Source: a virus
DNA: 64,000 nucleotides
Direction: 5' to 3' (one strand)
IMG/VR virus record: IMGVR_UViG_3300025751_000003
The position numbers were made by a program, and so were the translations under genes. Below are positions 23,940 to 30,923 of the stretch, piece after piece; positions within the stretch are counted from its first letter, which is position 1, and the number at the start of each line of letters is the position of its first letter. The notes beneath the pieces are model-generated. The model did no database searches, was not told where the DNA came from, and was given only the letters and a program-made list of their open reading frames with translations.

Positions 23940-24010
23940 GGAAGCGGAGCCACCAAGGCTCCGCTTTTTCATGGTGTATAGTTCTGTTATCGGGCCGGCG
24001 ACGGTCCCCA
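23940..24010 (+). promoter_or_regulatory. terminator-promoter cassette, copy 3
   Basis: Hairpin (AAGCGGAGCC/GGCTCCGCTT), TTTTT, GGTGTATAGTTCT (23973..23985) and CCGGCGACGGTCCC. Confidence 0.6.
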
Positions 24011-24023
24011 TTCCTGGAGCATC

Positions 24024-24227
24024 ATGCCTCTCTTCTTCAATGACCGCGAAGCCTGCGTCGCCTTCTGTGAGCAGCGTGGTTGGACTCTCGGCCCCTGGCG
24101 CCTAGAGCCCGTTCTGGCCTCTACTGACCTGGCCTGGAAGGGCACTTGCACCCGCTGGATCATTCGCCTCATCTTTAACGATGGATGTGGCAACAGCGAG
24201 CTGCAGGGCTGGTTCACCCGCCTCTGA
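24024..24227 (+). CDS. hypothetical protein
   Basis: 67-aa ORF. Confidence 0.5.
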   Translation: MPLFFNDREACVAFCEQRGWTLGPWRLEPVLASTDLAWKGTCTRWIIRLIFNDGCGNSELQGWFTRL

Positions 24228-24231
24228 CCTT

Positions 24232-24266
24232 AAAAGGGCCGCCCCAAGCGGCCCCTTATATATATT
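24232..24266 (+). terminator. hairpin followed by a TATATATATT -10-like tract (variant cassette)
   Basis: GGGCCGC-cccaa-GCGGCCC followed by CTTATATATATT. Confidence 0.5.
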
Positions 24267-24293
24267 CCCCTTCCATCGATATATCCGAGAACC

Positions 24294-24479
24294 ATGCAAG
24301 ACGCCATCGCCGTTATTGCCATTTCTAAAAAGGGCAAATCCCGCATCGGCACTAAGCTCACCACTGCCATTGTCGAACAGAATCACCACGATAAAATCTT
24401 CGTTGTGTTTCCTGAGCTAAATCAATGCAGGTGGATTCGCAAAGACAACGATCCTGACTTTTCCATTGTTGATTCCTGA
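24294..24479 (+). CDS. hypothetical protein
   Basis: 61-aa ORF with a GAGAACCATG context. Confidence 0.5.
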   Translation: MQDAIAVIAISKKGKSRIGTKLTTAIVEQNHHDKIFVVFPELNQCRWIRKDNDPDFSIVDS

Positions 24480-24483
24480 AACC

Positions 24484-24789
24484 ATGCGTTACGTCTGTAA
24501 TTACAACGACAACGGTCCCTATTTCAGTGCTACGCAAGGGCAATATCAAGCAGCTCGCCTCAAAGAGCTGCTGATGCACGTGCGCGTGTGCATGGAAGAC
24601 GCAGATCAGGCCATTGGCGTGTTCAATGGTGACTCAGAGTGCATTGGTATGTGGCTTGATGAAGCAGAGCCCGTAGATGACGGGGAAGGTGGCATGGTGT
24701 TGGGCAAACCGTGCTACACGCTGTATCGCCCAGGCGACATGAGCGCCGGATTGTGGAACATGCACCTTCGCCATTTCAACAGGCCATGA
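24484..24789 (+). CDS. hypothetical protein
   Basis: Met at 24484 (GAAACCATG) within track ORF 24466..24789. Confidence 0.5.
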   Translation: MRYVCNYNDNGPYFSATQGQYQAARLKELLMHVRVCMEDADQAIGVFNGDSECIGMWLDEAEPVDDGEGGMVLGKPCYTLYRPGDMSAGLWNMHLRHFNRP

Positions 24790-24944
24790 TTCTCATTGAT
24801 TTCTTCTCTGAAGACGCCTGTAAGGGCACTGAGCTGATTGAAGGGTGGTATTTCTACGCTGATGACGATGATTCTGTCATTGGCGGGCCTTTCCCCAATG
24901 AGGAAGCCGCCCTCAAGGCGGCTTTCGATGGACATTCTTGGTGA
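24786..24944 (+). CDS. hypothetical acidic protein
   Basis: ATGA overlap (MILIDFFSEDACKGTELIEGWYFYADDDD...). Confidence 0.45.
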   Translation: MILIDFFSEDACKGTELIEGWYFYADDDDSVIGGPFPNEEAALKAAFDGHSW

Positions 24945-25048
24945 GACCCGGCTAGAGGTGTATTGGACCCGGCTAGGAATGTATCTATGGAAAAATTTTG
25001 GACCCGGCTAGGGTCGTATCTAGGGTCCGGCTAGGGTCGTATCTAGGG
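24945..25048 (+). repeat. four tandem iteron-like direct repeats
   Basis: GACCCGGCTAGAGGTGTATTG / GACCCGGCTAGGAATGTATCTATGG / GACCCGGCTAGGGTCGTATCTAGGG / TCCGGCTAGGGTCGTATCTAGGG. Confidence 0.8.
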
Positions 25049-25081
25049 AGGTCCATGCGGCTATGCGCCTCCCCGCATAGT

Positions 25082-25520
25082 AGTACAAATGTACTAGCCG
25101 ATTGTCACTGATAAGCAAAACTTATCATTCAGGCCCGAACGATAAGCTGGGCTTATCATATAAGCCAGGCCTATGGGAGGCCGCCCCATCCACAAGCTGG
25201 GCTTATCAGTGGCCCACCAGTACGTTTGCACTTGTGCCAATCCGGCACTGTCACACGATGCCGGTACGGATCGTGATGGCCTGCCCTGCCGATACGGATC
25301 GTGATCACACTGGCCCCTGCAGTGCGGATCGTGACGGGCAGCGCTGCTGATCAGCACCGTTAGCTTGTGCCAATCCGGCCTGCTGTCACAGCGGCCCCTT
25401 TGTCTGTATCCGTTGCTACATTCTGGCCCTTTGTAAGGTTTCGCAATATTTGCGCCGCTTGCACCTGGCCGTGCTAACGGCCCCGACCCTTTGCCCCCGC
25501 TTGTGCCAATCGACGGCCTG
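25082..25520. repeat. non-coding zone with several interleaved repeat families and palindromes
   Basis: AGTACAaaTGTACT; TGATAAGcaaaaCTTATCA; GATAAGCtggGCTTATC; CTTGTGCCAATC(CGGC) x3; (TA/TG)CGGATCGTGA x3; TGCTGATCAGCA. Confidence 0.75.
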
Positions 25521-25751
25521 GCCTGCCCCAGGGTTGACGTGGGGGCCTGCCATGCTGTACGCGCGGGCGCGATCGTTTGTCTTTTGCTTTGCACGGCCCA
25601 GCAGTCAGCGGCCCCTACCATTGCTGACCGCCAAAAGCCCCTAGCTAGTGGGCCACCTCTGGCACTGGCCTAGTTGCCCTGGGCTTTGGCCCTTGTGCTT
25701 GGCAATATTTGAGGGCGCCAGCGATGGTGCAGCCCTCTCCTCTTCAATCCG

Positions 25752-25916
25752 ATGCAAGCCCTCTCCATCACTGCCAAGCTGGCCGTTGTTTTTGGCGGTT
25801 CTCTCCTGGCCCTTTTCACGGCCTCACTGGCCGTAGAGGATCAGCGGCACTTCATCGCATGCCGCGCCACGGGCGCCAGCGCTGACGCTTGCCTGCTGCA
25901 GATCGCAGGCCGCTGA
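25752..25916 (+). CDS. possible 54-aa TM protein
   Basis: Below the track cutoff (MQALSITAKLAVVFGGSLLALFTASLAVEDQRHFIACRATGASADACLLQIAGR). Confidence 0.3.
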   Translation: MQALSITAKLAVVFGGSLLALFTASLAVEDQRHFIACRATGASADACLLQIAGR

Positions 25917-25955
25917 TTCCCTACCCCCCCCGTCAACCACAACCACACCAAAGCC

Positions 25956-27473
25956 ATGCCCACCACCACCACCACCCCCGCCGGCCCCATCGCCTATCTG
26001 CAGGCCGTAGCCTCTGGCACCACCAAAGCCCAGGGCCTGAAGCGCCCGACCGTTGCAGCCCTGCAGCAGGCAGCCAAAGCCCTGGGCCTGCCCGACCGCA
26101 TCGACCACGCCCCCAGCGGCGGCTACCACGTCGGCACTGGCTGGAATATTGGCCCCTGTAGCAACCTGAAAGACGTGGCCGCGGCCCTACTGCGCAGTCA
26201 CGAGAACGCCTGGGCCGTTAAGCCTGCAGCCCAGGCCCTGCCCCCGAGCCATGCCGAGCGCGTGGCCGATGACATTCTGGCCGCTTTGGATGAGCTAAGC
26301 GCCCGATGGGAGGCCCAACCACAGCAGCAACCACAGCAGGCCCCCGCTGCCATCGTGCCCGCTGGCCCTACTGCCCGCAAGACGGCCCCCGCCGCTGTGC
26401 CCGATGACGTGAAGGCGCACCTAGCCCGCTTTGGCCTGGCCGTTGATGGCCTGCTGACAGTAGGGGCCTCAAACGCCAAGCTTGCAAAGGGCAAAGCCCT
26501 GGCCTGGCCCGTCATCCTGCACCACTTGCCCGCCAAAGCCCTGGCCCAGGCCGTGGCCGGCCCCAAAGCCGGCCCCACGGCCCCACGCTCCCGGATCGAC
26601 GGCCTGCAGGCCCTGGCCGAACGTGAGAACGTCCTAAGCCTGGCCTTGGCCCATAATGGCTGCCCCTGGGCCTCTGCTGGCTGTGCTGCTGGCTGCCTGG
26701 CCTGGGCTGGTCATGGCGGAATGTCCACCACTGTGGCCGCTGCCCGTGCCCGCCGCACCCTTGCCATGCTGGCCGATGGCCGTATATATGCCAGGGCCGT
26801 GCTTTGGGCCATCGCCCGAGCCTATCGGCAGGCCCAGACCAAAGGGCTGCCCCTGGCCGTCAGACTGCGCGGCACCGATGACAGCCCGGTTCACCTTTGG
26901 CGCTTTGACGTGACAGCAGCAGAGGCACAAAGCCTGGCCCGCCGTTACGGCCTGCCCGTGGCTCCTGGCCAGGGCCTCACCCTGCCAGAGGCCCTGGCCC
27001 TGGCCCCTGCCGGTGCTGTGCATCTCTACGAATATTCCAAAGCCCCCATCACTGGCCCCCACGGCCTGCAGGCCCAGGCCAGCGCTGGCTTTGACGTGAC
27101 AGCCTCGCTGGCAGCAGACCGGCCCCGTGGCATCGATCAAGCCCTGGCCGCTGTGGCCGCTGGGTTCCGCGTGGCCGTGCCCGCTGGCTTTGCAAAGGGC
27201 CAGCCCCTGCCAGAGGCCCTGATTCTGCGCAACGATGACGGCGGGGTGCGCCTGCTGTGCATCGACGGCGACACCACCGACCACCGATGGGCCGACCCTG
27301 CAGGGCCTCAGCCTGGGGGCTTTGACGGCGTGGCCGTCATCCTGCGCACAAAGCGCAGCAGGGGCAAAGGGCCAGAGGCTGACGCGTTCAGCCTCACCCC
27401 CCTGGTGGGAGCATGGCAGCCCCTGGCCGGTGGTGGCCAGGCAGCGTTCACCACCGTGAAATGGGAGGCCTGA
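25956..27473 (+). CDS. GC-rich 505-aa protein, C-terminal two-thirds GP88-like (function unknown)
   Basis: SNAKLAKGK..., CPWASAGCAAGCLAWAGHGG..AARARR, RLRGTDDSP, HLYEYSK and IDGDTTDHRWADP..VILRTKRSRGKG resemble the GP88 family as I recall it. The N-terminus is low complexity. Confidence 0.55.
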   Translation: MPTTTTTPAGPIAYLQAVASGTTKAQGLKRPTVAALQQAAKALGLPDRIDHAPSGGYHVGTGWNIGPCSNLKDVAAALLRSHENAWAVKPAAQALPPSHAERVADDILAALDELSARWEAQPQQQPQQAPAAIVPAGPTARKTAPAAVPDDVKAHLARFGLAVDGLLTVGASNAKLAKGKALAWPVILHHLPAKALAQAVAGPKAGPTAPRSRIDGLQALAERENVLSLALAHNGCPWASAGCAAGCLAWAGHGGMSTTVAAARARRTLAMLADGRIYARAVLWAIARAYRQAQTKGLPLAVRLRGTDDSPVHLWRFDVTAAEAQSLARRYGLPVAPGQGLTLPEALALAPAGAVHLYEYSKAPITGPHGLQAQASAGFDVTASLAADRPRGIDQALAAVAAGFRVAVPAGFAKGQPLPEALILRNDDGGVRLLCIDGDTTDHRWADPAGPQPGGFDGVAVILRTKRSRGKGPEADAFSLTPLVGAWQPLAGGGQAAFTTVKWEA

Positions 27474-27476
27474 CCA

Positions 27477-27608
27477 ATGCTGCCCCTACAGCCCCCGGCA
27501 TGGATGGAGAGGGAAGAGGCCCGAGCCGAATGGTTGGAAGCCCAGGGCCTGCCAGAGGATTGGCAGCCCGACCCAGAGGATCTAGAGCGATGGTGGGAGA
27601 TCGAATAG
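27477..27608 (+). CDS. possible 43-aa acidic peptide
   Basis: MLPLQPPAWMEREEARAEWLEAQGLPEDWQPDPEDLERWWEIE, starting 4 nt after the upstream stop. Confidence 0.3.
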   Translation: MLPLQPPAWMEREEARAEWLEAQGLPEDWQPDPEDLERWWEIE

Positions 27609-27644
27609 CAGCCCCTACCATGCCGGTCCCCATCCCGTCAACTC

Positions 27645-27677
27645 AGCCCCCAGGCAGCCCCTGGGGGCTTTGCTTTG
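27645..27677 (+). terminator. rho-independent terminator closing the GC-rich module
   Basis: AGCCCCCAGG-cagcc-CCTGGGGGCT followed by TTGCTTTG. Confidence 0.65.
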
Positions 27678-27817
27678 CCTGCTGGCCCCTGCCATGCCTG
27701 GCCCCCGCTTTGGCCCTGCTACGGGCCCACAGGCTGCCCGCTGACGCTGCCCCCGCTTTGCCTGCTGCTGCCTGAGCTTTGCTGGGCTGAGGGTATCACC
27801 CATCACTGGAACGGGGT

Positions 27818-27839
27818 TTTTCCACAGGTCTGTGGAAAA
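27818..27839. promoter_or_regulatory. inverted pair of DnaA-box-like 9-mers
   Basis: TTTTCCACAG-GT-CTGTGGAAAA is a perfect 22-bp palindrome containing TTTTCCACA on both strands. Confidence 0.6.
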
Positions 27840-28019
27840 CTCTTCACTGTAACGCTTTGTTTCAACGCTTGACGCACCGGCCGGTGCCATGCAAGAATAG
27901 CGAAGCAATGGTTGACATAGCGCGGTAACGTGGGGGTTTTGTGCCAAGCTTGTCGGGCTACCCCAAAACAAAGTGCCGCAATTTTTGATCAACTATTTTC
28001 CTTTATGCATACGCGCATA

Positions 28020-28541
28020 TCACAACTGAGAGCAGACTAGGTTCATTTTTGCTTTTGCAAGTGCGAGGCCAAGTTCGATTAGTTCTGTTTCGTTTGCGTC
28101 ATTTTTCAAGCAATTTGCTTTCCAAGAAATAATCCAAACATTGTCTTTTGTGTATCCTCTTGAGCTATCAATACGATCTAGCGATGGAGCGCAGGGATGA
28201 GCGTTACCTTGTTCTCCTGCTCCATAGTTAGTTTTCCAGCGAAAAGGAGCCCCGGTAATAGGACAATTATCGGTTACGAGGGAATATAGGAATTTGGAAT
28301 CAAGGTCAAATTCCCAGCCTTTAGTTTTTGCTCTATGTTTAGCCGCTGAGAGCATTTTTGCGATTCTTGATGCCACGGGATTTGCATTGCGAGCAAATGC
28401 CCGCGCGTTGTAGTTTCTGTTGTAACTGCTTTCACATGCTTTACATGCGGATCTGCGACCATCTTTAGCTCTGCTTCGACGAGTAAATAGTGAGAGCGGC
28501 TTTACGCGACCACATTTAGAGCAGGCCTTTGTTCCTTCCAT
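28020..28541 (-). CDS. HNH-type homing-endonuclease-like protein
   Basis: CSKCGRVKPLSLF..CKACE ribbon and APSLDRIDSSRGYTKDNVWIISWKANCLKND. It is a paralogue of 2307..2930. The start is taken at MEGTKAC, whereas the track extends to 28712. Confidence 0.6.
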   Translation of the reverse strand: MEGTKACSKCGRVKPLSLFTRRSRAKDGRRSACKACESSYNRNYNARAFARNANPVASRIAKMLSAAKHRAKTKGWEFDLDSKFLYSLVTDNCPITGAPFRWKTNYGAGEQGNAHPCAPSLDRIDSSRGYTKDNVWIISWKANCLKNDANETELIELGLALAKAKMNLVCSQL

Positions 28542-28699
28542 GGAAGGCAAATTAACTGGGCAAAGCATAGCCATGGCTCGTGAAAACGTAGTCTTGCTAT
28601 GGCGAACCAAGGCCCCAAAGGCCGCAGGTGAGCCATATGGCGAAGCTCCGTTCAGAACATTCACCAGACATTCCATTCCATTGTTATTTCCAGAACAAA

Positions 28700-28726
28700 G
28701 GGCGGTCCTCAAAGACCGCCCTTTTT
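28700..28726. terminator. hairpin terminator
   Basis: GGGCGGTC-ctcaaa-GACCGCCC followed by TTTTT. Confidence 0.55.
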
Positions 28727-29215
28727 AGTGCGAAGACCATTGTTTGCGTGTGTTTTTGCGTCACCCGCGCAGTTGCACGCATTTTCCCCTTGCATTCACC
28801 AGGCGTCCTGGAGCGACGCCGCTTTGAGGCGGCGTCTCAGGGCTGGAAGGACATTTGCCAGTCCTAGAAGGCTTGCGAGGGGCTTGGCGTCGAGAGCTTT
28901 GGGCTCTTCTGGAGCGCTCAGTGGCCGCTTTGGGGCGGCCCCTCGCTTAGTGCTGGATGCGATGGTCAGGCGTCGCTTCGTCGGCGAACCGTATCCTGAA
29001 CAGCAGTTGCACAATGCTTAGCATAACGTGAGCTGTGACCTAATTTTGGTATAGCGCTGATACCAAACAGGGCTTTTGATGCCATTTCTCATGAAAATCT
29101 TCAGCTTTTCTCCATTGTTTATGCTGAGATGCTGAAATAATCGTGAAAAGTGACAAGAAACACATGCCCTTCCATTGTTCTCTCTTTAGCGTGAAGAAAT
29201 ATCGCAGAGATCACC

Positions 29216-29404
29216 ATGTGGGACGATCTGCCAGAGCCCTTCATGGTCGGCTCAATCAAGCTATGGCCCGCCCATAGCCGCCCTGGCTATACGTGGTTCA
29301 TTGCTCACGAAGGTAAGCCTCATTACTTTCGCAGCAAGAATGAGGCAATGCTCTTCGCAAAGGACCGGCAGTCCATCGAAGATCCTGAAATGCTGTGTGA
29401 CTAG
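29216..29404 (+). CDS. hypothetical protein
   Basis: 62-aa ORF with a CACCATG context. A hairpin follows it. Confidence 0.5.
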   Translation: MWDDLPEPFMVGSIKLWPAHSRPGYTWFIAHEGKPHYFRSKNEAMLFAKDRQSIEDPEMLCD

Positions 29405-29455
29405 CGAAAGATTTGATTAAGGAGCCAGCAGACGTAGCTAAGCTGGTTCCGTTCA

Positions 29456-29485
29456 AGAGCCGCCTTTGAGGGCGGCTCTTTCGTC
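29456..29485 (+). terminator. hairpin terminator/attenuator ahead of the RNR gene
   Basis: AAGAGCCGCC-tttgag-GGCGGCTCTT followed by TCGTCTC. Confidence 0.5.
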
Positions 29486-29495
29486 TCAATCAAGG

Positions 29496-30917
29496 ATGAC
29501 AATGGCGGAGAAGATTGCCCGCACTGGACGGGTGCAAAGTTGGATGGATGATGCTGACGGGCGCCTCCCCGTGAGCTGCACAGTGTTCAACGTGCTTGAT
29601 TCAATGGAAGGCGAGGATGGCATTGAGGCTTCCTGGCGCTTTGTGAGTCATGGTCTGCGCAATGGCGCTGGCGTTGCCGTCCATTTATCTGATTTGCGGC
29701 CTAAGGGCGCTGAAAATGGCAAGGGCCTGGTGGCCAGTGGTCCGGTGAGCTTCGGCAAAATCTATTCCACATTGAATGAAATTCTGCGACGGGGCGGGCG
29801 ATACAAGAACGGTGCAATTGTTCTGCATATTGATTATTCGCACCCTGATGCGCTTGATTTCATCAAAGCATCGCGAAGTGAGCTGCCTTGGGTGAAGCGT
29901 TGCGTGAATGTTGATAAAGATTTTATGGAGAAGAGTTCTCCTGAATTGATTGATGCATTGCTGAAGGGAATTGCTTCAGGCGACATCTGGCTGAACAAAA
30001 TTCGTTATGACCAGCGTGGTGAGCGCATTCGTGCGAACGTCTGTCTGGAGGTTTATCTTCCGCATCGTGGCACTTGTCTGTTGCAGCACGTCAACATGGG
30101 CGCCTGCGCCATCGAAGACCTCGTAGGGGCTTTCAAGGAGGGCATGCTGCAGCTTTGTGAGCTGCATGCCGTGACGGGCGTTGGCGACACTGGAGAGTAT
30201 CTGCCTGCCGTTGTAGATCGTCAAGTGGGGCTTGGCATGCTGGGCCTGGCTAACTTCCTGGCGCAGGAGGGTATTTCCTATAAGGACTTCGGCCTGGCGC
30301 TGAAAGATGTGAACGATGGAAAGCCTGGGCCTATTACCAATGCTCGCACTGCTGCCATCGTTTTGAAGCAGGCAATCATGGAGGCCGCGGCCATTGCCCG
30401 TGAATACAACATGGACAGGGCATTTTGCATTGCTCCCACAGCATCGTGCTCCTATCGCTACCAGGATTTGCGTGGATTTACTACAACGCCTGAGATTGCT
30501 CCTCCTATTGCTCGTCACGTGGACCGCGATAGCGGCACATTTGGTGTGGAAAGCTTTGACTATGGCGATGTTGAGACGGCAGCAGATGTGGGCTGGGAAG
30601 ATTACAAACGTGTGGCTGATGAGCTGGTACGCATGTACCAAAATAGCGGCAATCTTTTCCATGGATATAGCTTCAATTCTTGGAGCGATGTTGTCGTTTA
30701 TGACGAAGCCTTCCTCAAGGATTGGCTAGCATCACCTCAGACGAGCCTCTACTATTCGCTGCAAGTTCTTCCAGACACGCAGCGTAAAGATGATGCCTAC
30801 GCGGCATTAGATGACGACTTTAAGAGCATGTTTGGTCTCGACGATGAGTCGGCGGCCAATCAGAGTTCTGCGTCTTGTGATTTAGAGGCCGGATTCTGTG
30901 CAGCTTGCGCAGAGTGA
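29496..30917 (+). CDS. ribonucleotide reductase catalytic (alpha) subunit, unusually short
   Basis: GAGVAVHLSDLRPKGA..SGPVSF, HPDALDFI, the NVCLEV catalytic Cys-Glu motif, APTASCSYR and a C-terminal Cys pair (CDLEAGFCAACAE). Confidence 0.8.
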   Translation: MTMAEKIARTGRVQSWMDDADGRLPVSCTVFNVLDSMEGEDGIEASWRFVSHGLRNGAGVAVHLSDLRPKGAENGKGLVASGPVSFGKIYSTLNEILRRGGRYKNGAIVLHIDYSHPDALDFIKASRSELPWVKRCVNVDKDFMEKSSPELIDALLKGIASGDIWLNKIRYDQRGERIRANVCLEVYLPHRGTCLLQHVNMGACAIEDLVGAFKEGMLQLCELHAVTGVGDTGEYLPAVVDRQVGLGMLGLANFLAQEGISYKDFGLALKDVNDGKPGPITNARTAAIVLKQAIMEAAAIAREYNMDRAFCIAPTASCSYRYQDLRGFTTTPEIAPPIARHVDRDSGTFGVESFDYGDVETAADVGWEDYKRVADELVRMYQNSGNLFHGYSFNSWSDVVVYDEAFLKDWLASPQTSLYYSLQVLPDTQRKDDAYAALDDDFKSMFGLDDESAANQSSASCDLEAGFCAACAE

Positions 30918-30923
30918 CTAATT

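What the first reader, a model, noticed from the sequence alone, without database searches (positions are those of the whole stretch)
25752..27677. Self-contained GC-rich module (small TM ORF, 505-aa GP88-like ORF, 43-aa ORF, own terminator) inside an otherwise ~50% G+C phage
Seen: hand counts of 60-nt stretches here give about two-thirds G+C (for example 40/60 at 25981-26040), against roughly 45-55% in the structural and early genes. Spurious long ORFs appear on both strands, as expected for a local GC jump. The module has its own upstream repeat region and its own hairpin terminator (27645..27677), and a homing-type HNH gene sits on its right flank. The large ORF has a low-complexity Ala/Pro/Gln N-terminal third. 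The rest contains SNAKLAKGK, CPWASAGCAAGCLAWAGHGG, YEYSK and IDGDTTDHRWADP...KRSRGKG, which I recognise as the GP88-type phage/plasmid family with no assigned function. Inference: this is a recently acquired cassette, host- or plasmid-derived. Its link to iterons and DnaA boxes suggests a replication or maintenance role for a protein family that has none assigned.
Basis: partly seen in the sequence, partly recalled or inferred. Interest (0 to 1): 0.75.

Follow-up and report, generated by a model that had tools for sequence, protein, structure and literature searches.

The report
Swappable GC-rich GP88 gene cassette
A GC-rich block in this Synechococcus siphovirus is real; it is one of several interchangeable cassettes at a hypervariable early-gene slot and encodes a divergent member of the uncharacterised GP88/DUF7227 enzyme superfamily, so it is largely ordinary phage mosaicism with an unexplained compositional anomaly.

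Summary
Window 25200-27900 is 66% G+C against 52% elsewhere (z = 6.6). The 505-aa ORF is a Pfam GP88 member (PF17338, above the gathering score). The hairpin at 27645-27669 exists.

The window is a relative of cyanosiphovirus S-CBS4. An RNR-anchored census of 80 IMG/VR relatives shows that the segment between a conserved palindrome (25079-25096) and about 28689 is a hypervariable slot. It holds one of five occupants: a long GC-rich GP88 (this type), a mid-length GC-rich GP88, a short normal-GC GP88, a DUF7227 gene (a remote GP88 homolog), or an unrelated DUF7178 gene. Contig L019 is 94-96% identical to the window on both flanks and carries DUF7227 instead. So "cassette" is supported.

"Host- or plasmid-derived" is not supported: I found no homolog in plasmids, cultured phages or isolate genomes, and the nearest high-GC relative is phage-like. 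The replication inference is not supported either: the iterons occur with every cassette type, and DnaA boxes are not enriched.

The catalytic domain models at pLDDT 95 with no PDB match. It has an invariant Cys triad and conserved charged motifs in an alpha/beta barrel-like fold. A metal- or Fe-S-dependent early enzyme used in host-phage conflict is the best guess, and it is unproven.

The parts
24945..25048 (.). Four or five iteron-like direct repeats of about 22 nt (GRYCCGGCTRG...GTATC). This is a backbone element immediately left of the slot.
   Evidence: repeats. (conserved in five lineages). (present with cassette classes A, B, DUF7227 and DUF7178).
25079..25096 (.). Conserved palindrome TAGTACAAATGTACTA. 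It marks the left breakpoint of the variable slot.
   Evidence: 100% match in L007/L008; amplified in L017. (identity to L019 ends at 25096)..
25097..28688 (.). The variable slot as occupied in this genome: the whole exchangeable segment relative to L019.
   Evidence: L019 is 94-96% identical on both sides and different in between. L021, L024 and L027 resume homology at 28560-28689.
25106..25211 (.). Lineage-variable inverted repeats with TGATAAGC/GCTTATCA half-sites.
   Evidence: (I9) and the sequence. Only partly conserved, in L007.
25374..25706 (+). Conserved non-coding leader of the GC-rich GP88 type. Its core block of about 140 nt is at 25543-25695. Probably a promoter or 5' UTR.
   Evidence: 91% identity to L094, higher than the coding sequence (79%); the block is present in 9 class-A loci; conserved stem at GGCCA/TGGCC with little covariation; no Rfam match.
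25752..25916 (+). Small single-pass membrane protein gene (54 aa) with an invariant EDQRxF..CR..G.S.D.CLL.I.GR tail. It is an independent mini-cassette.
   Evidence: 57-80% aa identity in 17 loci, mostly with class-B or DUF7227 cassettes. Third-codon-position changes dominate (for example 11/6/25). Absent from the other class-A loci.
25956..26240 (+). N-terminal domain of the 505-aa protein (about aa 6-87, alpha-alpha-beta-beta-beta-alpha), specific to the long GC-rich type.
   Evidence: pLDDT above 90; 37-54% identity in L007, L008, L017 and L018; no PDB fold match.
26241..26402 (+). Helix plus a disordered Gln/Pro/Ala-rich linker.
   Evidence: pLDDT 45-78; sequence.
26403..27473 (+). GP88 catalytic domain. 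It carries the Cys triad C236/C243/C247 and the motifs SNAKLAKGK, RLRGTDD, YEYSK, TAS, DGDTTDHR and LRTK.
   Evidence: invariant columns. (pLDDT 94.7, pTM 0.92). (BFVD GP88-domain matches, E from about 1e-8 to 6e-15, plus one closer homolog at 8e-53)..
27477..27608 (+). 43-aa acidic ORF of doubtful coding status.
   Evidence: only L018 has a homolog (45% identity). L007 and L008 have unrelated 76-aa ORFs at this position.
27645..27669 (+). G+C-rich hairpin, a plausible intrinsic terminator for the GP88 transcript.
   Evidence: The region is 84% conserved in L094 only. The U-tract is weak.
28020..28712 (-). Endonuclease VII/HNH-type gene with low G+C (GC3 0.38). It is variably present across relatives and is not tied to one cassette class.
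   Evidence: PHROG 1035, E = 5e-36.; homologs occur with classes A, B and DUF7227. It is absent in L017. Some other loci carry T5orf172/MUG113 endonucleases instead.
28696..28728 (.). A-tract/stem/T-tract hairpin (AAAGGGCGGTC...GACCGCCCTTTTT) at the right boundary of the slot.
   Evidence: (I1) and the sequence. Homology to L019, L021 and L024 resumes at 28664-28689.

Best explanation
What is shown:
- The block is one allele of a hypervariable cassette slot in the early or DNA-metabolism region of S-CBS4-like cyanosiphoviruses. The slot lies between a conserved iteron/palindrome region and the ribonucleotide reductase genes.
- In about nine of ten relatives the slot encodes a member of one very divergent protein superfamily. 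The forms are a long GC-rich GP88, a mid-length GC-rich GP88, a short normal-GC GP88, and DUF7227.
- These forms are exchanged between backbones by recombination.
- The allele in the window consists of a conserved leader of about 330 nt, the 505-aa GC-rich gene and a hairpin. An unrelated small membrane-protein gene has been recombined in upstream, and an HNH endonuclease gene lies downstream.

What is inferred:
- The G+C richness reflects an origin in high-GC phages.
- The protein is an early-expressed enzyme. Its alpha/beta barrel-like catalytic domain binds a metal or Fe-S centre through the invariant C-x6-C-x3-C triad that follows the first strand.
- Conserved Lys/Arg/Tyr/Asp residues at strand ends would act on an anionic substrate, most likely DNA or a nucleotide.
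- Its role would be in host-phage conflict (genome protection or counter-defence). That would explain why nearly every relative keeps a version while the versions are replaced at a high rate.

The evolutionary and anatomical part is well supported. The biochemical part is a best guess.
For: Cassette and slot:
- The L019 flanks are 94-96% identical to the window while the interior differs.
- Census: 11 class-A, 3 class-A', 21 class-B, 13 DUF7227, 4 DUF7178 and 4 unresolved loci.
- L094 has 87% GP88 identity but 76% RNR identity, and its leader is 91% identical.
- Synteny holds in L007, L008, L017 and L018.

Superfamily:
- L5 gp88 is the archetypal GP88 (E = 1.4e-56) and also hits DUF7227 over its full length (E = 0.0028).
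- The GP88 HMM finds the slot's DUF7227 ORFs at E = 3e-6 to 2e-4, and hhalign gives E = 0.0023.
- The motif skeleton is shared, and L5 gp88 and DUF7227 share a C-terminal CxxCxxC.

Composition:
- GC-rich alleles are 63-72% G+C in 48-53% backgrounds.
- L009 is a phage-like contig of 67-80% G+C with a 56%-identical homolog.

Enzyme character:
- Invariant residues are K, three C, R, two Y, T, S, two D, R and K.
- The model has pLDDT 94.7, with beta-strands alternating with helices.
- The weak PDB fold hits are nearly all TIM-barrel enzymes.

DNA or nucleotide link and early expression:
- Fusions exist to InPase, a RadC JAB domain and a winged HTH, and GP88-containing phage proteins of 995-1211 aa exist.
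- InPase is described as a polyvalent-protein domain in PMC5512222.
- Typical GP88 genes sit in arrays of small early ORFs.
- L5 gene 88 is second from the right end of the genome. That this is L5's early leftward operon is background knowledge.
Against: - No activity has been assigned to any GP88, DUF7227 or DUF5131 protein, and there is no literature on PF17338, DUF7227 or DUF7178.
- No solved structure is similar by sequence or by fold (best E = 0.02, TM about 0.2).
- The link to the radical-SAM-related DUF5131 is not statistically significant: hhalign E = 0.13-0.25, and 1 of 88 members at E = 0.24.
- The Cys spacing is not the canonical CX3CX2C.
- Four loci carry an unrelated DUF7178 gene and four are unresolved, so the superfamily gene is not strictly indispensable at this position.
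- Metagenomic contigs can be chimeric. L019 is only 10 kb.
- The counter-defence role rests on evolutionary pattern and context only.
- Persistence of GC4 at 0.71-0.80 across alleles as divergent as 68% aa identity is not explained by a simple 'foreign origin'.
Confidence: 0.6

Rival explanations
1. Replication or maintenance protein. GP88 would be the initiator, or an accessory factor, acting at the adjacent iteron/palindrome region, which would be the phage origin.
For: - A non-coding region of about 1 kb lies directly upstream. It contains 4-5 direct repeats spaced 21-23 nt apart, palindromes and AT-rich arrays, and its architecture is conserved in all lineages.
- Replication modules are classic mosaic units in phages (background knowledge).
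- Some clade members carry winged-HTH-like N- or C-terminal domains.
Against: - The iterons are 70-95% conserved regardless of which cassette follows: GC-rich GP88, short GP88, DUF7227 or the unrelated DUF7178. An initiator and its iterons should co-vary.
- Typical GP88 genes elsewhere have no such repeats.
- DnaA boxes are at chance level.
- The invariant residues look catalytic rather than DNA-binding.
- The N-terminal domain has no detectable HTH match.
Confidence: 0.1
2. Recent capture from the host chromosome or a plasmid. The high G+C would simply mirror a high-GC Synechococcus/Cyanobium donor.
For: - The cassette's G+C (66-69%, GC3 0.75) is close to that of subcluster 5.2 Synechococcus such as the S-CBS4 host CB0101, about 64% (background knowledge).
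- One homolog is labelled as a Synechococcus MAG protein (P0088), and one locus sits in a Cyanobacteriota MAG.
Against: - There is no match in 72,556 plasmids.
- Only two short MAG contigs matched in 185,579 species genomes. L009 has phage genes, and L010 has 663x coverage.
- The P0001-P0120 homologs whose genomic context was examined lie on phage-like contigs of about 70 kb, or 109 kb, with the same synteny.
- The GC-rich type is old and diversified within phages.
Confidence: 0.07
3. The G+C richness is actively maintained rather than being a relic. The cause would be selection on the DNA or RNA, or on codon usage for early translation with the host tRNA pool, or biased repair.
For: - GC4 at conserved residues is 0.71-0.80 in five lineages, against 0.40-0.60 for RNR.
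- Even the fourfold sites that differ between lineages carry 52-68% G/C.
- Synonymous identity is higher than in RNR at similar aa identity, for example 0.58 against 0.28 for L008-L017.
- In L017 the island is bounded by the gene itself.
Against: - Horizontal spread of the cassette between backbones (L094) would by itself lower synonymous divergence relative to RNR.
- A high-GC phage reservoir exists (L009).
- Other early genes are not GC-rich.
- No structured RNA was detected.
Confidence: 0.25
4. The Cys triad is a structural or catalytic zinc site in a metal-dependent hydrolase or transferase of TIM-barrel type, with no radical or Fe-S chemistry.
For: - The weak fold hits are hydrolase- or isomerase-type TIM barrels, including amidohydrolases, xylose-isomerase-like proteins and AP endonuclease 2.
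- The D-G-D-x-x-D-x-R motif suits divalent-cation binding.
- The Cys spacing is non-canonical for radical SAM.
Against: - The Cys triad directly after the first strand, followed by a long helix, mirrors radical-SAM topology.
- DUF5131 has the near-identical GCx6Cx2CYA, and its motif blocks are collinear with GP88.
- DUF5131 matches 'radical SAM mobile pair protein A' at E = 7e-10 and is listed in the radical SAM superfamily (PMC9477430).
- L5 gp88 and DUF7227 have an extra CxxCxxC, like auxiliary clusters.
Confidence: 0.3

Closest known systems
Pfam GP88 (PF17338), namesake mycobacteriophage L5 gene 88 protein
   Same: The HMM match is above the gathering score. The Cys triad and the strand-end motifs are shared. 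The fold matches BFVD GP88-domain models. Both are stand-alone genes in an early-type region.
   Different: - Pairwise similarity to L5 gp88 is insignificant.
- The window protein is twice as long. It has an extra N-terminal domain and linker, plus two insertions in the catalytic domain.
- It is 69% G+C.
- Its C-terminal site is DGDxxDxR where L5 gp88 has CxxCxxC.
- The function of the family is unknown.
Pfam DUF7227 (PF23872)
   Same: It occupies the identical genomic slot in near-identical backbones. It shows remote homology and a shared motif skeleton.
   Different: - About 240 aa, ordinary G+C, and 18-21% identity to the window protein.
- Cys spacing is Cx3Cx6C, and there is a C-terminal Cys cluster.
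- It is a separate Pfam family with no literature.
DUF5131 / phage Gp37-Gp68 family (PF07505), listed in the radical SAM superfamily (RadicalSAM.org Megacluster-5-2)
   Same: - A three-Cys motif follows the first strand (GCx6Cx2CYA against CPxASxGCx3C[L/Y]A).
- An RRT motif follows it.
- Strand motifs are collinear.
- A BFVD protein named 'Gp37/Gp68-like' matches the model at E = 4e-12.
- It is a phage or prophage family of similar size.
   Different: - Profile-profile scores are not significant: E = 0.13-0.25.
- Only 1 of 88 GP88 members touches the DUF5131 model.
- GP88 has no NCBIfam radical-SAM hit, whereas DUF5131 has one.
- The relationship is a lead, not a demonstrated membership.
Mosaic cassette slots of tailed phages, for example the alternative replication or early modules of lambdoid phages and the hyperplastic regions of T4-like cyanophages (background knowledge)
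   Same: Fixed boundaries, alternative unrelated or distantly related genes, neighbouring homing endonuclease genes, and patchy distribution relative to the backbone phylogeny.
   Different: Here most alternatives belong to one enzyme superfamily. One allele class carries a strong and persistent compositional signature.
Polyvalent-protein domains of phages and conjugative elements (Iyer et al. 2017, PMC5512222)
   Same: GP88 domains occur fused to InPase and to a RadC JAB domain, and inside phage proteins of 1000-1200 aa.
   Different: The window protein is a two-domain stand-alone protein. GP88 is not named in that paper. Virion packaging is untested.

Membership tests
Pfam GP88 (PF17338) | Match to the family HMM above the curated gathering score | tested here: met
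   E = 2.2e-8, 34.7 bits against 24.4. Only aa 229-309 align to the Pfam model. All 38 and all 88 aligned relatives match GP88.
Pfam GP88 (PF17338) | Invariant Cys triad (C-x6-C-x3-C) and strand-end motifs (NxK, RxNGTxD, YxYxK, TxS, LRxK) | tested here: met
   The invariant columns include C236, C243, C247, R303, Y358, Y360, T382, S384, D439, D442, R444 and K466.
Pfam GP88 (PF17338) | Same fold as other GP88-domain proteins | tested here: met
   Foldseek against BFVD finds proteins named 'Gene product 88 domain-containing' at E from 5.6e-15 to about 1e-8, probability 1.00.
Pfam GP88 (PF17338) | Biochemical activity | not testable with these tools
   No activity is known for any member. There is no literature.
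Radical SAM superfamily (via DUF5131) | CX3CX2C motif or an accepted variant that ligates a [4Fe-4S] cluster | tested here: not met
   The spacing is C-x6-C-x3-C. DUF5131 has C-x6-C-x2-C. Cluster binding itself is untestable here.
Radical SAM superfamily (via DUF5131) | Significant sequence or profile similarity to a recognised member family | tested here: not met
   hhalign of GP88 against DUF5131 gives E = 0.13-0.25. hmmscan finds 1 of 88 members at E = 0.24. There is no NCBIfam hit.
Radical SAM superfamily (via DUF5131) | Partial TIM-barrel core with the Cys loop between beta1 and alpha1 | tested here: inconclusive
   The order of secondary-structure elements fits. The Foldseek PDB search has no significant hit; MoaA ranks 43rd at E = 1.7.
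Exchangeable genomic cassette (mosaic module) | Replaced as a unit in an otherwise near-identical genome, with fixed boundaries | tested here: met
   L019 against the window. The right boundary is at 28560-28689 in L019, L021, L024 and L027. The left boundary is at the palindrome.
Exchangeable genomic cassette (mosaic module) | Composition distinct from the backbone | tested here: met
   z = 6.6. The same holds for every GC-rich allele.
Exchangeable genomic cassette (mosaic module) | Own promoter and terminator | tested here: inconclusive
   The leader is conserved and travels with the gene. A hairpin with a weak T-tail is present. No sigma-70-like promoter stands out above chance.
Iteron-dependent replication initiator | Iterons co-vary with the initiator protein | tested here: not met
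   The iteron array is conserved with four unrelated or distant cassette types.
Iteron-dependent replication initiator | Recognisable DNA-binding (winged-helix) domain | tested here: inconclusive
   The N-terminal domain folds confidently but has no Pfam or PDB match. Sister proteins have winged-HTH-like extensions.

The most novel reading that the evidence does not exclude
GP88 and DUF7227, and perhaps DUF5131, would form one large superfamily of phage early enzymes that has not been recognised as such. The enzymes would be Fe-S, radical-SAM-like, and would modify DNA or a nucleotide to evade host defence. The hypervariable slot in S-CBS4-like cyanophages would be a natural allelic series produced by an arms race. 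The GC-rich allele's composition would be actively maintained by selection rather than being a relic of transfer.
Probability: 0.2. Interest if true: 0.75.

Novelty: new member of a known kind. Interest (0 to 1): 0.45.

Why it matters
GP88 is a large family with no function assigned: at least 3,692 clusters matched in one profile search. It is found in early regions of many phages, including the model mycobacteriophage L5. This locus offers three things.

First, it provides evidence that GP88 and DUF7227 are remote homologs that substitute for one another in the same slot.

Second, it gives a natural allelic series in closely related backbones. With that series, allele-swap experiments could reveal what the enzymes do.

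Third, it is a clean example of a gene-sized compositional island that stays GC-rich across diverged phages.

It also flags that the S-CBS4 reference record probably lacks this region. None of this overturns current understanding. Phage mosaicism and cassette slots are well known.

Tried and rejected
Searches that returned nothing useful:
- PDB sequence searches with the protein and with GP88 and DUF5131 profiles found nothing relevant.
- Foldseek against PDB, with both the catalytic-domain and the full-length models, gave no significant match.
- Rfam on 24400-29400 returned only a chance-level hit.
- NCBIfam had no model for any cassette class.
- Literature searches for PF17338, GP88, DUF5131, DUF7227 and DUF7178 found nothing on function.
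- tblastn against cultured phages and against plasmids gave no match.

Ideas tested and dropped:
- DnaA boxes are at chance level. The TTTTCCACA inverted pair at 27818-27839 looked interesting but is absent from diverged relatives.
- The 175-aa reverse ORF (25094-25621) was rejected as a gene. Nucleotide identity of 78% gives only 36% aa identity, and the ORF overlaps the conserved non-coding leader.
- DUF7178 was tested for a relationship to GP88. None was found.
- The hhalign link between GP88 and DUF5131 is not significant. I kept it only as a lead.

Conclusions I revised:
- I first concluded that the block is conserved in all relatives and is therefore not a cassette. That rested on the first four relatives, which had been found through the protein itself and so all carried it. 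The RNR-anchored census overturned it.
- I first concluded that the 54-aa ORF is not conserved. This was overturned once non-class-A loci were included.
- The absence of the block from the S-CBS4 record is uninformative. The record ends in the middle of a conserved ORF and both record ends flank the slot, so the record is probably not closed.


Full report
**1. The observation**

The compositional jump is real and large.
- Window 25200-27900 is 66.2% G+C against 51.7% for the rest of the window.
- In 200-nt windows the rise starts near 25200, plateaus at 66-72% across 25800-27800, and falls to 41-50% by 27900.
- Among 1.5-kb windows the maximum here is 0.691 against 0.518 +/- 0.026 elsewhere, z = 6.6.
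- GC3 of the 505-aa ORF is 0.745 against 0.533 +/- 0.066 for 42 other long ORFs. All codon positions are raised, and Ala makes up 21% of residues.

- The 505-aa ORF (25956-27473) matches Pfam GP88 above the gathering score (E = 2.2e-8, 34.7 against 24.4 bits) and PHROG 1617 (E = 9e-27).
- The hairpin at 27645-27669 exists, with a 10-bp stem and a T-poor tail.
- The neighbouring minus-strand gene is an endonuclease VII/HNH type.

**2. Genomic setting**

The window is a relative of Synechococcus siphovirus S-CBS4, 82-94% identical over most early and structural genes. Window 24254-24688 aligns to the last 435 bases of the S-CBS4 record, and 29190 onward aligns to its first bases. The 4.5 kb that includes the finding therefore falls exactly between the two ends of that record.

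The S-CBS4 record stops in the middle of a conserved 107-aa ORF, which continues for about 30 codons in the window. The record is therefore most likely not closed across this region, and its "absence" there says nothing.

**3. First impression, and why it was wrong**

Homologs of the 505-aa protein are abundant in metagenomes: 498 hits, several on contigs of about 70 kb. Four diverged relatives found through the protein (L007, L008, L017, L018) show the same order: 52-aa ORF, then a non-coding region of 0.6-1.0 kb, then GP88, then RNR. Their GP88 genes are 68-72% G+C in 49-51% backgrounds.

That suggested an ancestral, fixed feature. But those loci were selected through the protein itself, so all of them necessarily carried it.

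**4. The unbiased census**

I anchored on the neighbouring RNR gene in IMG/VR and obtained 80 loci at 75-99% RNR identity. tblastn and HMM classification show that the segment between the 52-aa ORF and RNR is hypervariable.

| Class | Occupant of the slot | Identity to window GP88 | G+C of the gene | Loci |
|---|---|---|---|---|
| A | Long GC-rich GP88 (the window type) | 63-87% | 63-72% | 11, counting L007, L008, L017 and L018 |
| A' | GC-rich GP88 in a 386-427-aa open reading frame | 48-49% | 65% | 3 |
| B | Short GP88 | 27-33% | 43-50% (ordinary) | 21 |
| C | DUF7227 (PF23872, E = 9e-78) | 18-21% | 47-51% | 13 |
| D | DUF7178, unrelated | none | 47-56% | 4 |
| Unresolved | no GP88-type gene identified | not applicable | not applicable | 4 |

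The decisive case is L019. It is 94.4% identical to window 23976-25096 and 95.8% identical to 28689-30918. In between it carries 3.6 kb of ordinary G+C encoding DUF7227 and a different reverse-strand gene.

Backbones with at least 90% RNR identity to the window carry four different cassettes:
- the window itself: class A;
- L019 and L024: DUF7227;
- L021 and L022: class A';
- L027: class B.

Conversely, L094 has an 87%-identical GP88 and a 91%-identical leader, but only 76% RNR identity. The block is therefore an exchangeable cassette that moves between backbones.

The left boundary lies at a conserved palindrome (25079-25096). The right boundary lies at about 28560-28689, next to a strong A-tract/T-tract hairpin (28696-28728).

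**5. What belongs to the cassette and what to the backbone**

- The iteron-like repeats (24945-25048) and the palindrome occur with every cassette class. They are backbone elements.
- The conserved block of about 140 nt (25543-25695) lies within a leader of about 330 nt that is 91% identical in L094. It accompanies class-A GP88 genes and, in the other class-A genomes, ends about 30 nt before the start codon. It is more conserved than the coding sequence, so it is probably the promoter and 5' leader. Rfam has no match, and covariation support for a structure is weak. Two class-B loci (L083, L085) also match part of it.
- The 54-aa ORF (25752-25916) is a genuine gene. Seventeen loci encode homologs at 57-80% identity with an N-terminal hydrophobic segment and an invariant EDQRxF..CR..G.S.D.CLL.I.GR tail. 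Substitutions are concentrated at third codon positions. It normally accompanies class-B or DUF7227 cassettes and is missing from the other class-A loci, so the window lineage is itself a recombinant.
- The 43-aa ORF is conserved only in L018.
- HNH/endonuclease VII homologs occur with classes A, B and C and are missing in L017. Some other loci have T5orf172/MUG113 endonucleases at this position. Homing-type endonucleases are therefore frequent neighbours of the slot rather than parts of this cassette.

**6. The protein**

The catalytic domain (aa 150-505) was modelled with pLDDT 94.7 and pTM 0.92. Strands alternate with helices in a barrel-like alpha/beta arrangement.

Invariant residues across 38-55 diverse relatives are:
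- a Lys in S-N-x-K;
- C236, C243 and C247 (C-x6-C-x3-C), which directly follow the first strand;
- R303 in R-L-R/N-G-T-x-D;
- Y358 and Y360;
- T382 and S384;
- D439, D442 and R444 in D-G-D-x-x-D-x-R;
- K466.

These sit at strand ends, as expected for an active site.

No solved structure resembles the domain by sequence or by fold. The best Foldseek E-value is 0.02 at a TM-score of about 0.2, and the weak hits are almost all TIM-barrel enzymes. In the viral predicted-structure library it matches GP88-domain proteins (E from about 1e-8 to 6e-15), including proteins of 995-1211 aa, and one protein named "Gp37/Gp68-like" (E = 4e-12).

The N-terminal 87 residues fold confidently as alpha-alpha-beta-beta-beta-alpha with no known match. 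Residues 88-150 form a helix followed by a disordered Gln/Pro/Ala-rich linker.

**7. Superfamily relationships**

L5 gene 88 protein is the archetypal GP88 (E = 1.4e-56). Its only other Pfam hit is DUF7227, across its full length (E = 0.0028).

The GP88 HMM detects the slot's DUF7227 proteins at E = 3e-6 to 2e-4 among 13 targets, and hhalign gives E = 0.0023 with the same motif register. An alignment of all classes shows one motif skeleton. L5 gp88 and DUF7227 share a C-terminal CxxCxxC where classes A, A' and B have DGDxxDxR. I regard remote homology between GP88 and DUF7227 as likely.

A further link to DUF5131 (Gp37/Gp68) is only a lead.
- DUF5131 has GCx6Cx2CYA followed by RRRT, and its strand motifs are collinear with GP88.
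- However, hhalign E-values are 0.13-0.25.
- DUF5131 itself is listed in the radical SAM superfamily next to spore photoproduct lyase (PMC9477430). It matches NCBIfam "radical SAM mobile pair protein A" at E = 7e-10, below that model's cut-off.

**8. Function**

No member of the family has a known activity.

Context points to an early, DNA- or nucleotide-related role.
- Fusions exist to a polyvalent-protein-type inorganic pyrophosphatase, a RadC JAB domain and a winged HTH.
- Typical members are stand-alone genes in arrays of small early ORFs.
- L5 gene 88 lies second from the right genome end, in what is known to be the early leftward operon (background knowledge).

Nearly every S-CBS4-like phage keeps some version, while versions as different as 18-30% identity replace each other in near-identical backbones. 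That pattern is typical of genes involved in host-phage conflict.

I therefore favour a metal- or Fe-S-dependent enzyme that modifies DNA or a nucleotide for genome protection or counter-defence. This is inference from pattern, at perhaps one chance in three.

The replication-initiator idea is weakened because the iterons do not co-vary with the cassette and DnaA boxes are at chance level.

**9. Origin of the composition**

No plasmid, cultured phage or isolate genome carries a detectable homolog. Two MAG contigs do. One of them, L009, is phage-like and uniformly 67-80% G+C, with a 56%-identical homolog that lacks the N-terminal domain. An origin in high-GC phages is the simplest reading.

What remains unexplained is the persistence of the signal.
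- GC4 at conserved residues is 0.71-0.80 in five class-A lineages, against 0.40-0.60 in RNR.
- Fourfold-degenerate sites that differ between lineages still carry 52-68% G/C.
- Synonymous identity exceeds that of RNR at similar amino-acid identity.

Cassette spread between backbones explains part of this. Selection or a continuing high-GC reservoir may explain the rest.

**10. Verdict**

A host or plasmid origin and a replication role are not supported.

The thing itself is a new, architecturally extended member of a known but uncharacterised family, sitting in a classic mosaic slot. Its main value is as an entry point to the function of GP88 and DUF7227. Interest is moderate.

Noticed in passing
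window 24466-24789; S-CBS4 record NC_016766 positions 69209-69420 and 1-30 (L002 end, L001 start): The S-CBS4 reference record ends in the middle of a conserved 107-aa ORF, and its two ends flank the hypervariable slot. The deposited genome is therefore probably missing several kb here, including whichever cassette S-CBS4 carries.
   Followed up: partly
window 24460, 28675, 29109, 29169 (also 43391 and 63443): The motif TTCCATTGTT is enriched: 7 matches with at most 1 mismatch against 1.45 expected, and 0 of 100 shuffles reach 7. Four copies cluster around the slot, mostly just upstream of plus-strand ORFs. It may be an early-gene control motif or a recombination linker.
   Followed up: partly
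window 28696-28728: There is a strong hairpin with an A-tract before it and a T-tract after it (AAAGGGCGGTC...GACCGCCCTTTTT). It lies exactly where homology to L019, L021 and L024 resumes, and it overlaps the 5' end of the HNH ORF.
   Followed up: no
window 27818-27839: A perfect 22-nt palindrome contains two inverted TTTTCCACA boxes, which I recall as the cyanobacterial DnaA-box variant. It is present only in near-identical genomes (L003-L006) and not in diverged relatives.
   Followed up: yes
window 28689-29029: A backbone segment of 59-64% G+C is conserved in all relatives examined (95.8% in L019, 89% in L021, 75% in L024). Gene callers place an ORF of about 80 aa here in relatives. Its coding status and function are unknown.
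   Followed up: no
L017 7400-7850: The backbone palindrome TAGTACAnnTGTACTA is amplified into long AT-rich tandem arrays (TAGTACAAAGATACTATAG...). G+C falls to 27% just upstream of a 68% G+C GP88 gene.
   Followed up: no
window 28020-28712 (minus strand); L055 4328-5089; L063 6823-7617: The HNH/endonuclease VII gene is a low-GC outlier (GC3 0.38) and is variably present. Other relatives carry T5orf172/MUG113 (GIY-YIG-like) endonuclease genes at the equivalent position next to RNR. This suggests endonuclease-driven turnover at the slot.
   Followed up: partly
L050 3561-4277; L055 1142-1879; L063 4563-5222; L095 4501-5160: In four relatives I found no GP88-type gene upstream of RNR. They carry a DUF7178 (PF23802) gene in that region instead, and it shows no detectable relationship to GP88. 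In three of the four the 52-aa ORF and iteron anchors that mark the slot were not detected either, so its placement in the slot is provisional. Nothing is known about this family.
   Followed up: partly
L013 2111-7110 (456-kb contig): A typical short GP88 gene sits between three ChlI/Mg-chelatase-like (ComM/YifB-type AAA+) genes on what looks like a jumbo-phage contig.
   Followed up: no
L019 6007-7014 (minus strand): The DUF7227 cassette in L019 is accompanied by a 335-aa reverse-strand ORF with only a weak IS110-type transposase (DEDD_Tnp_IS110) hit (E = 0.005). It sits where the window has its HNH gene.
   Followed up: no
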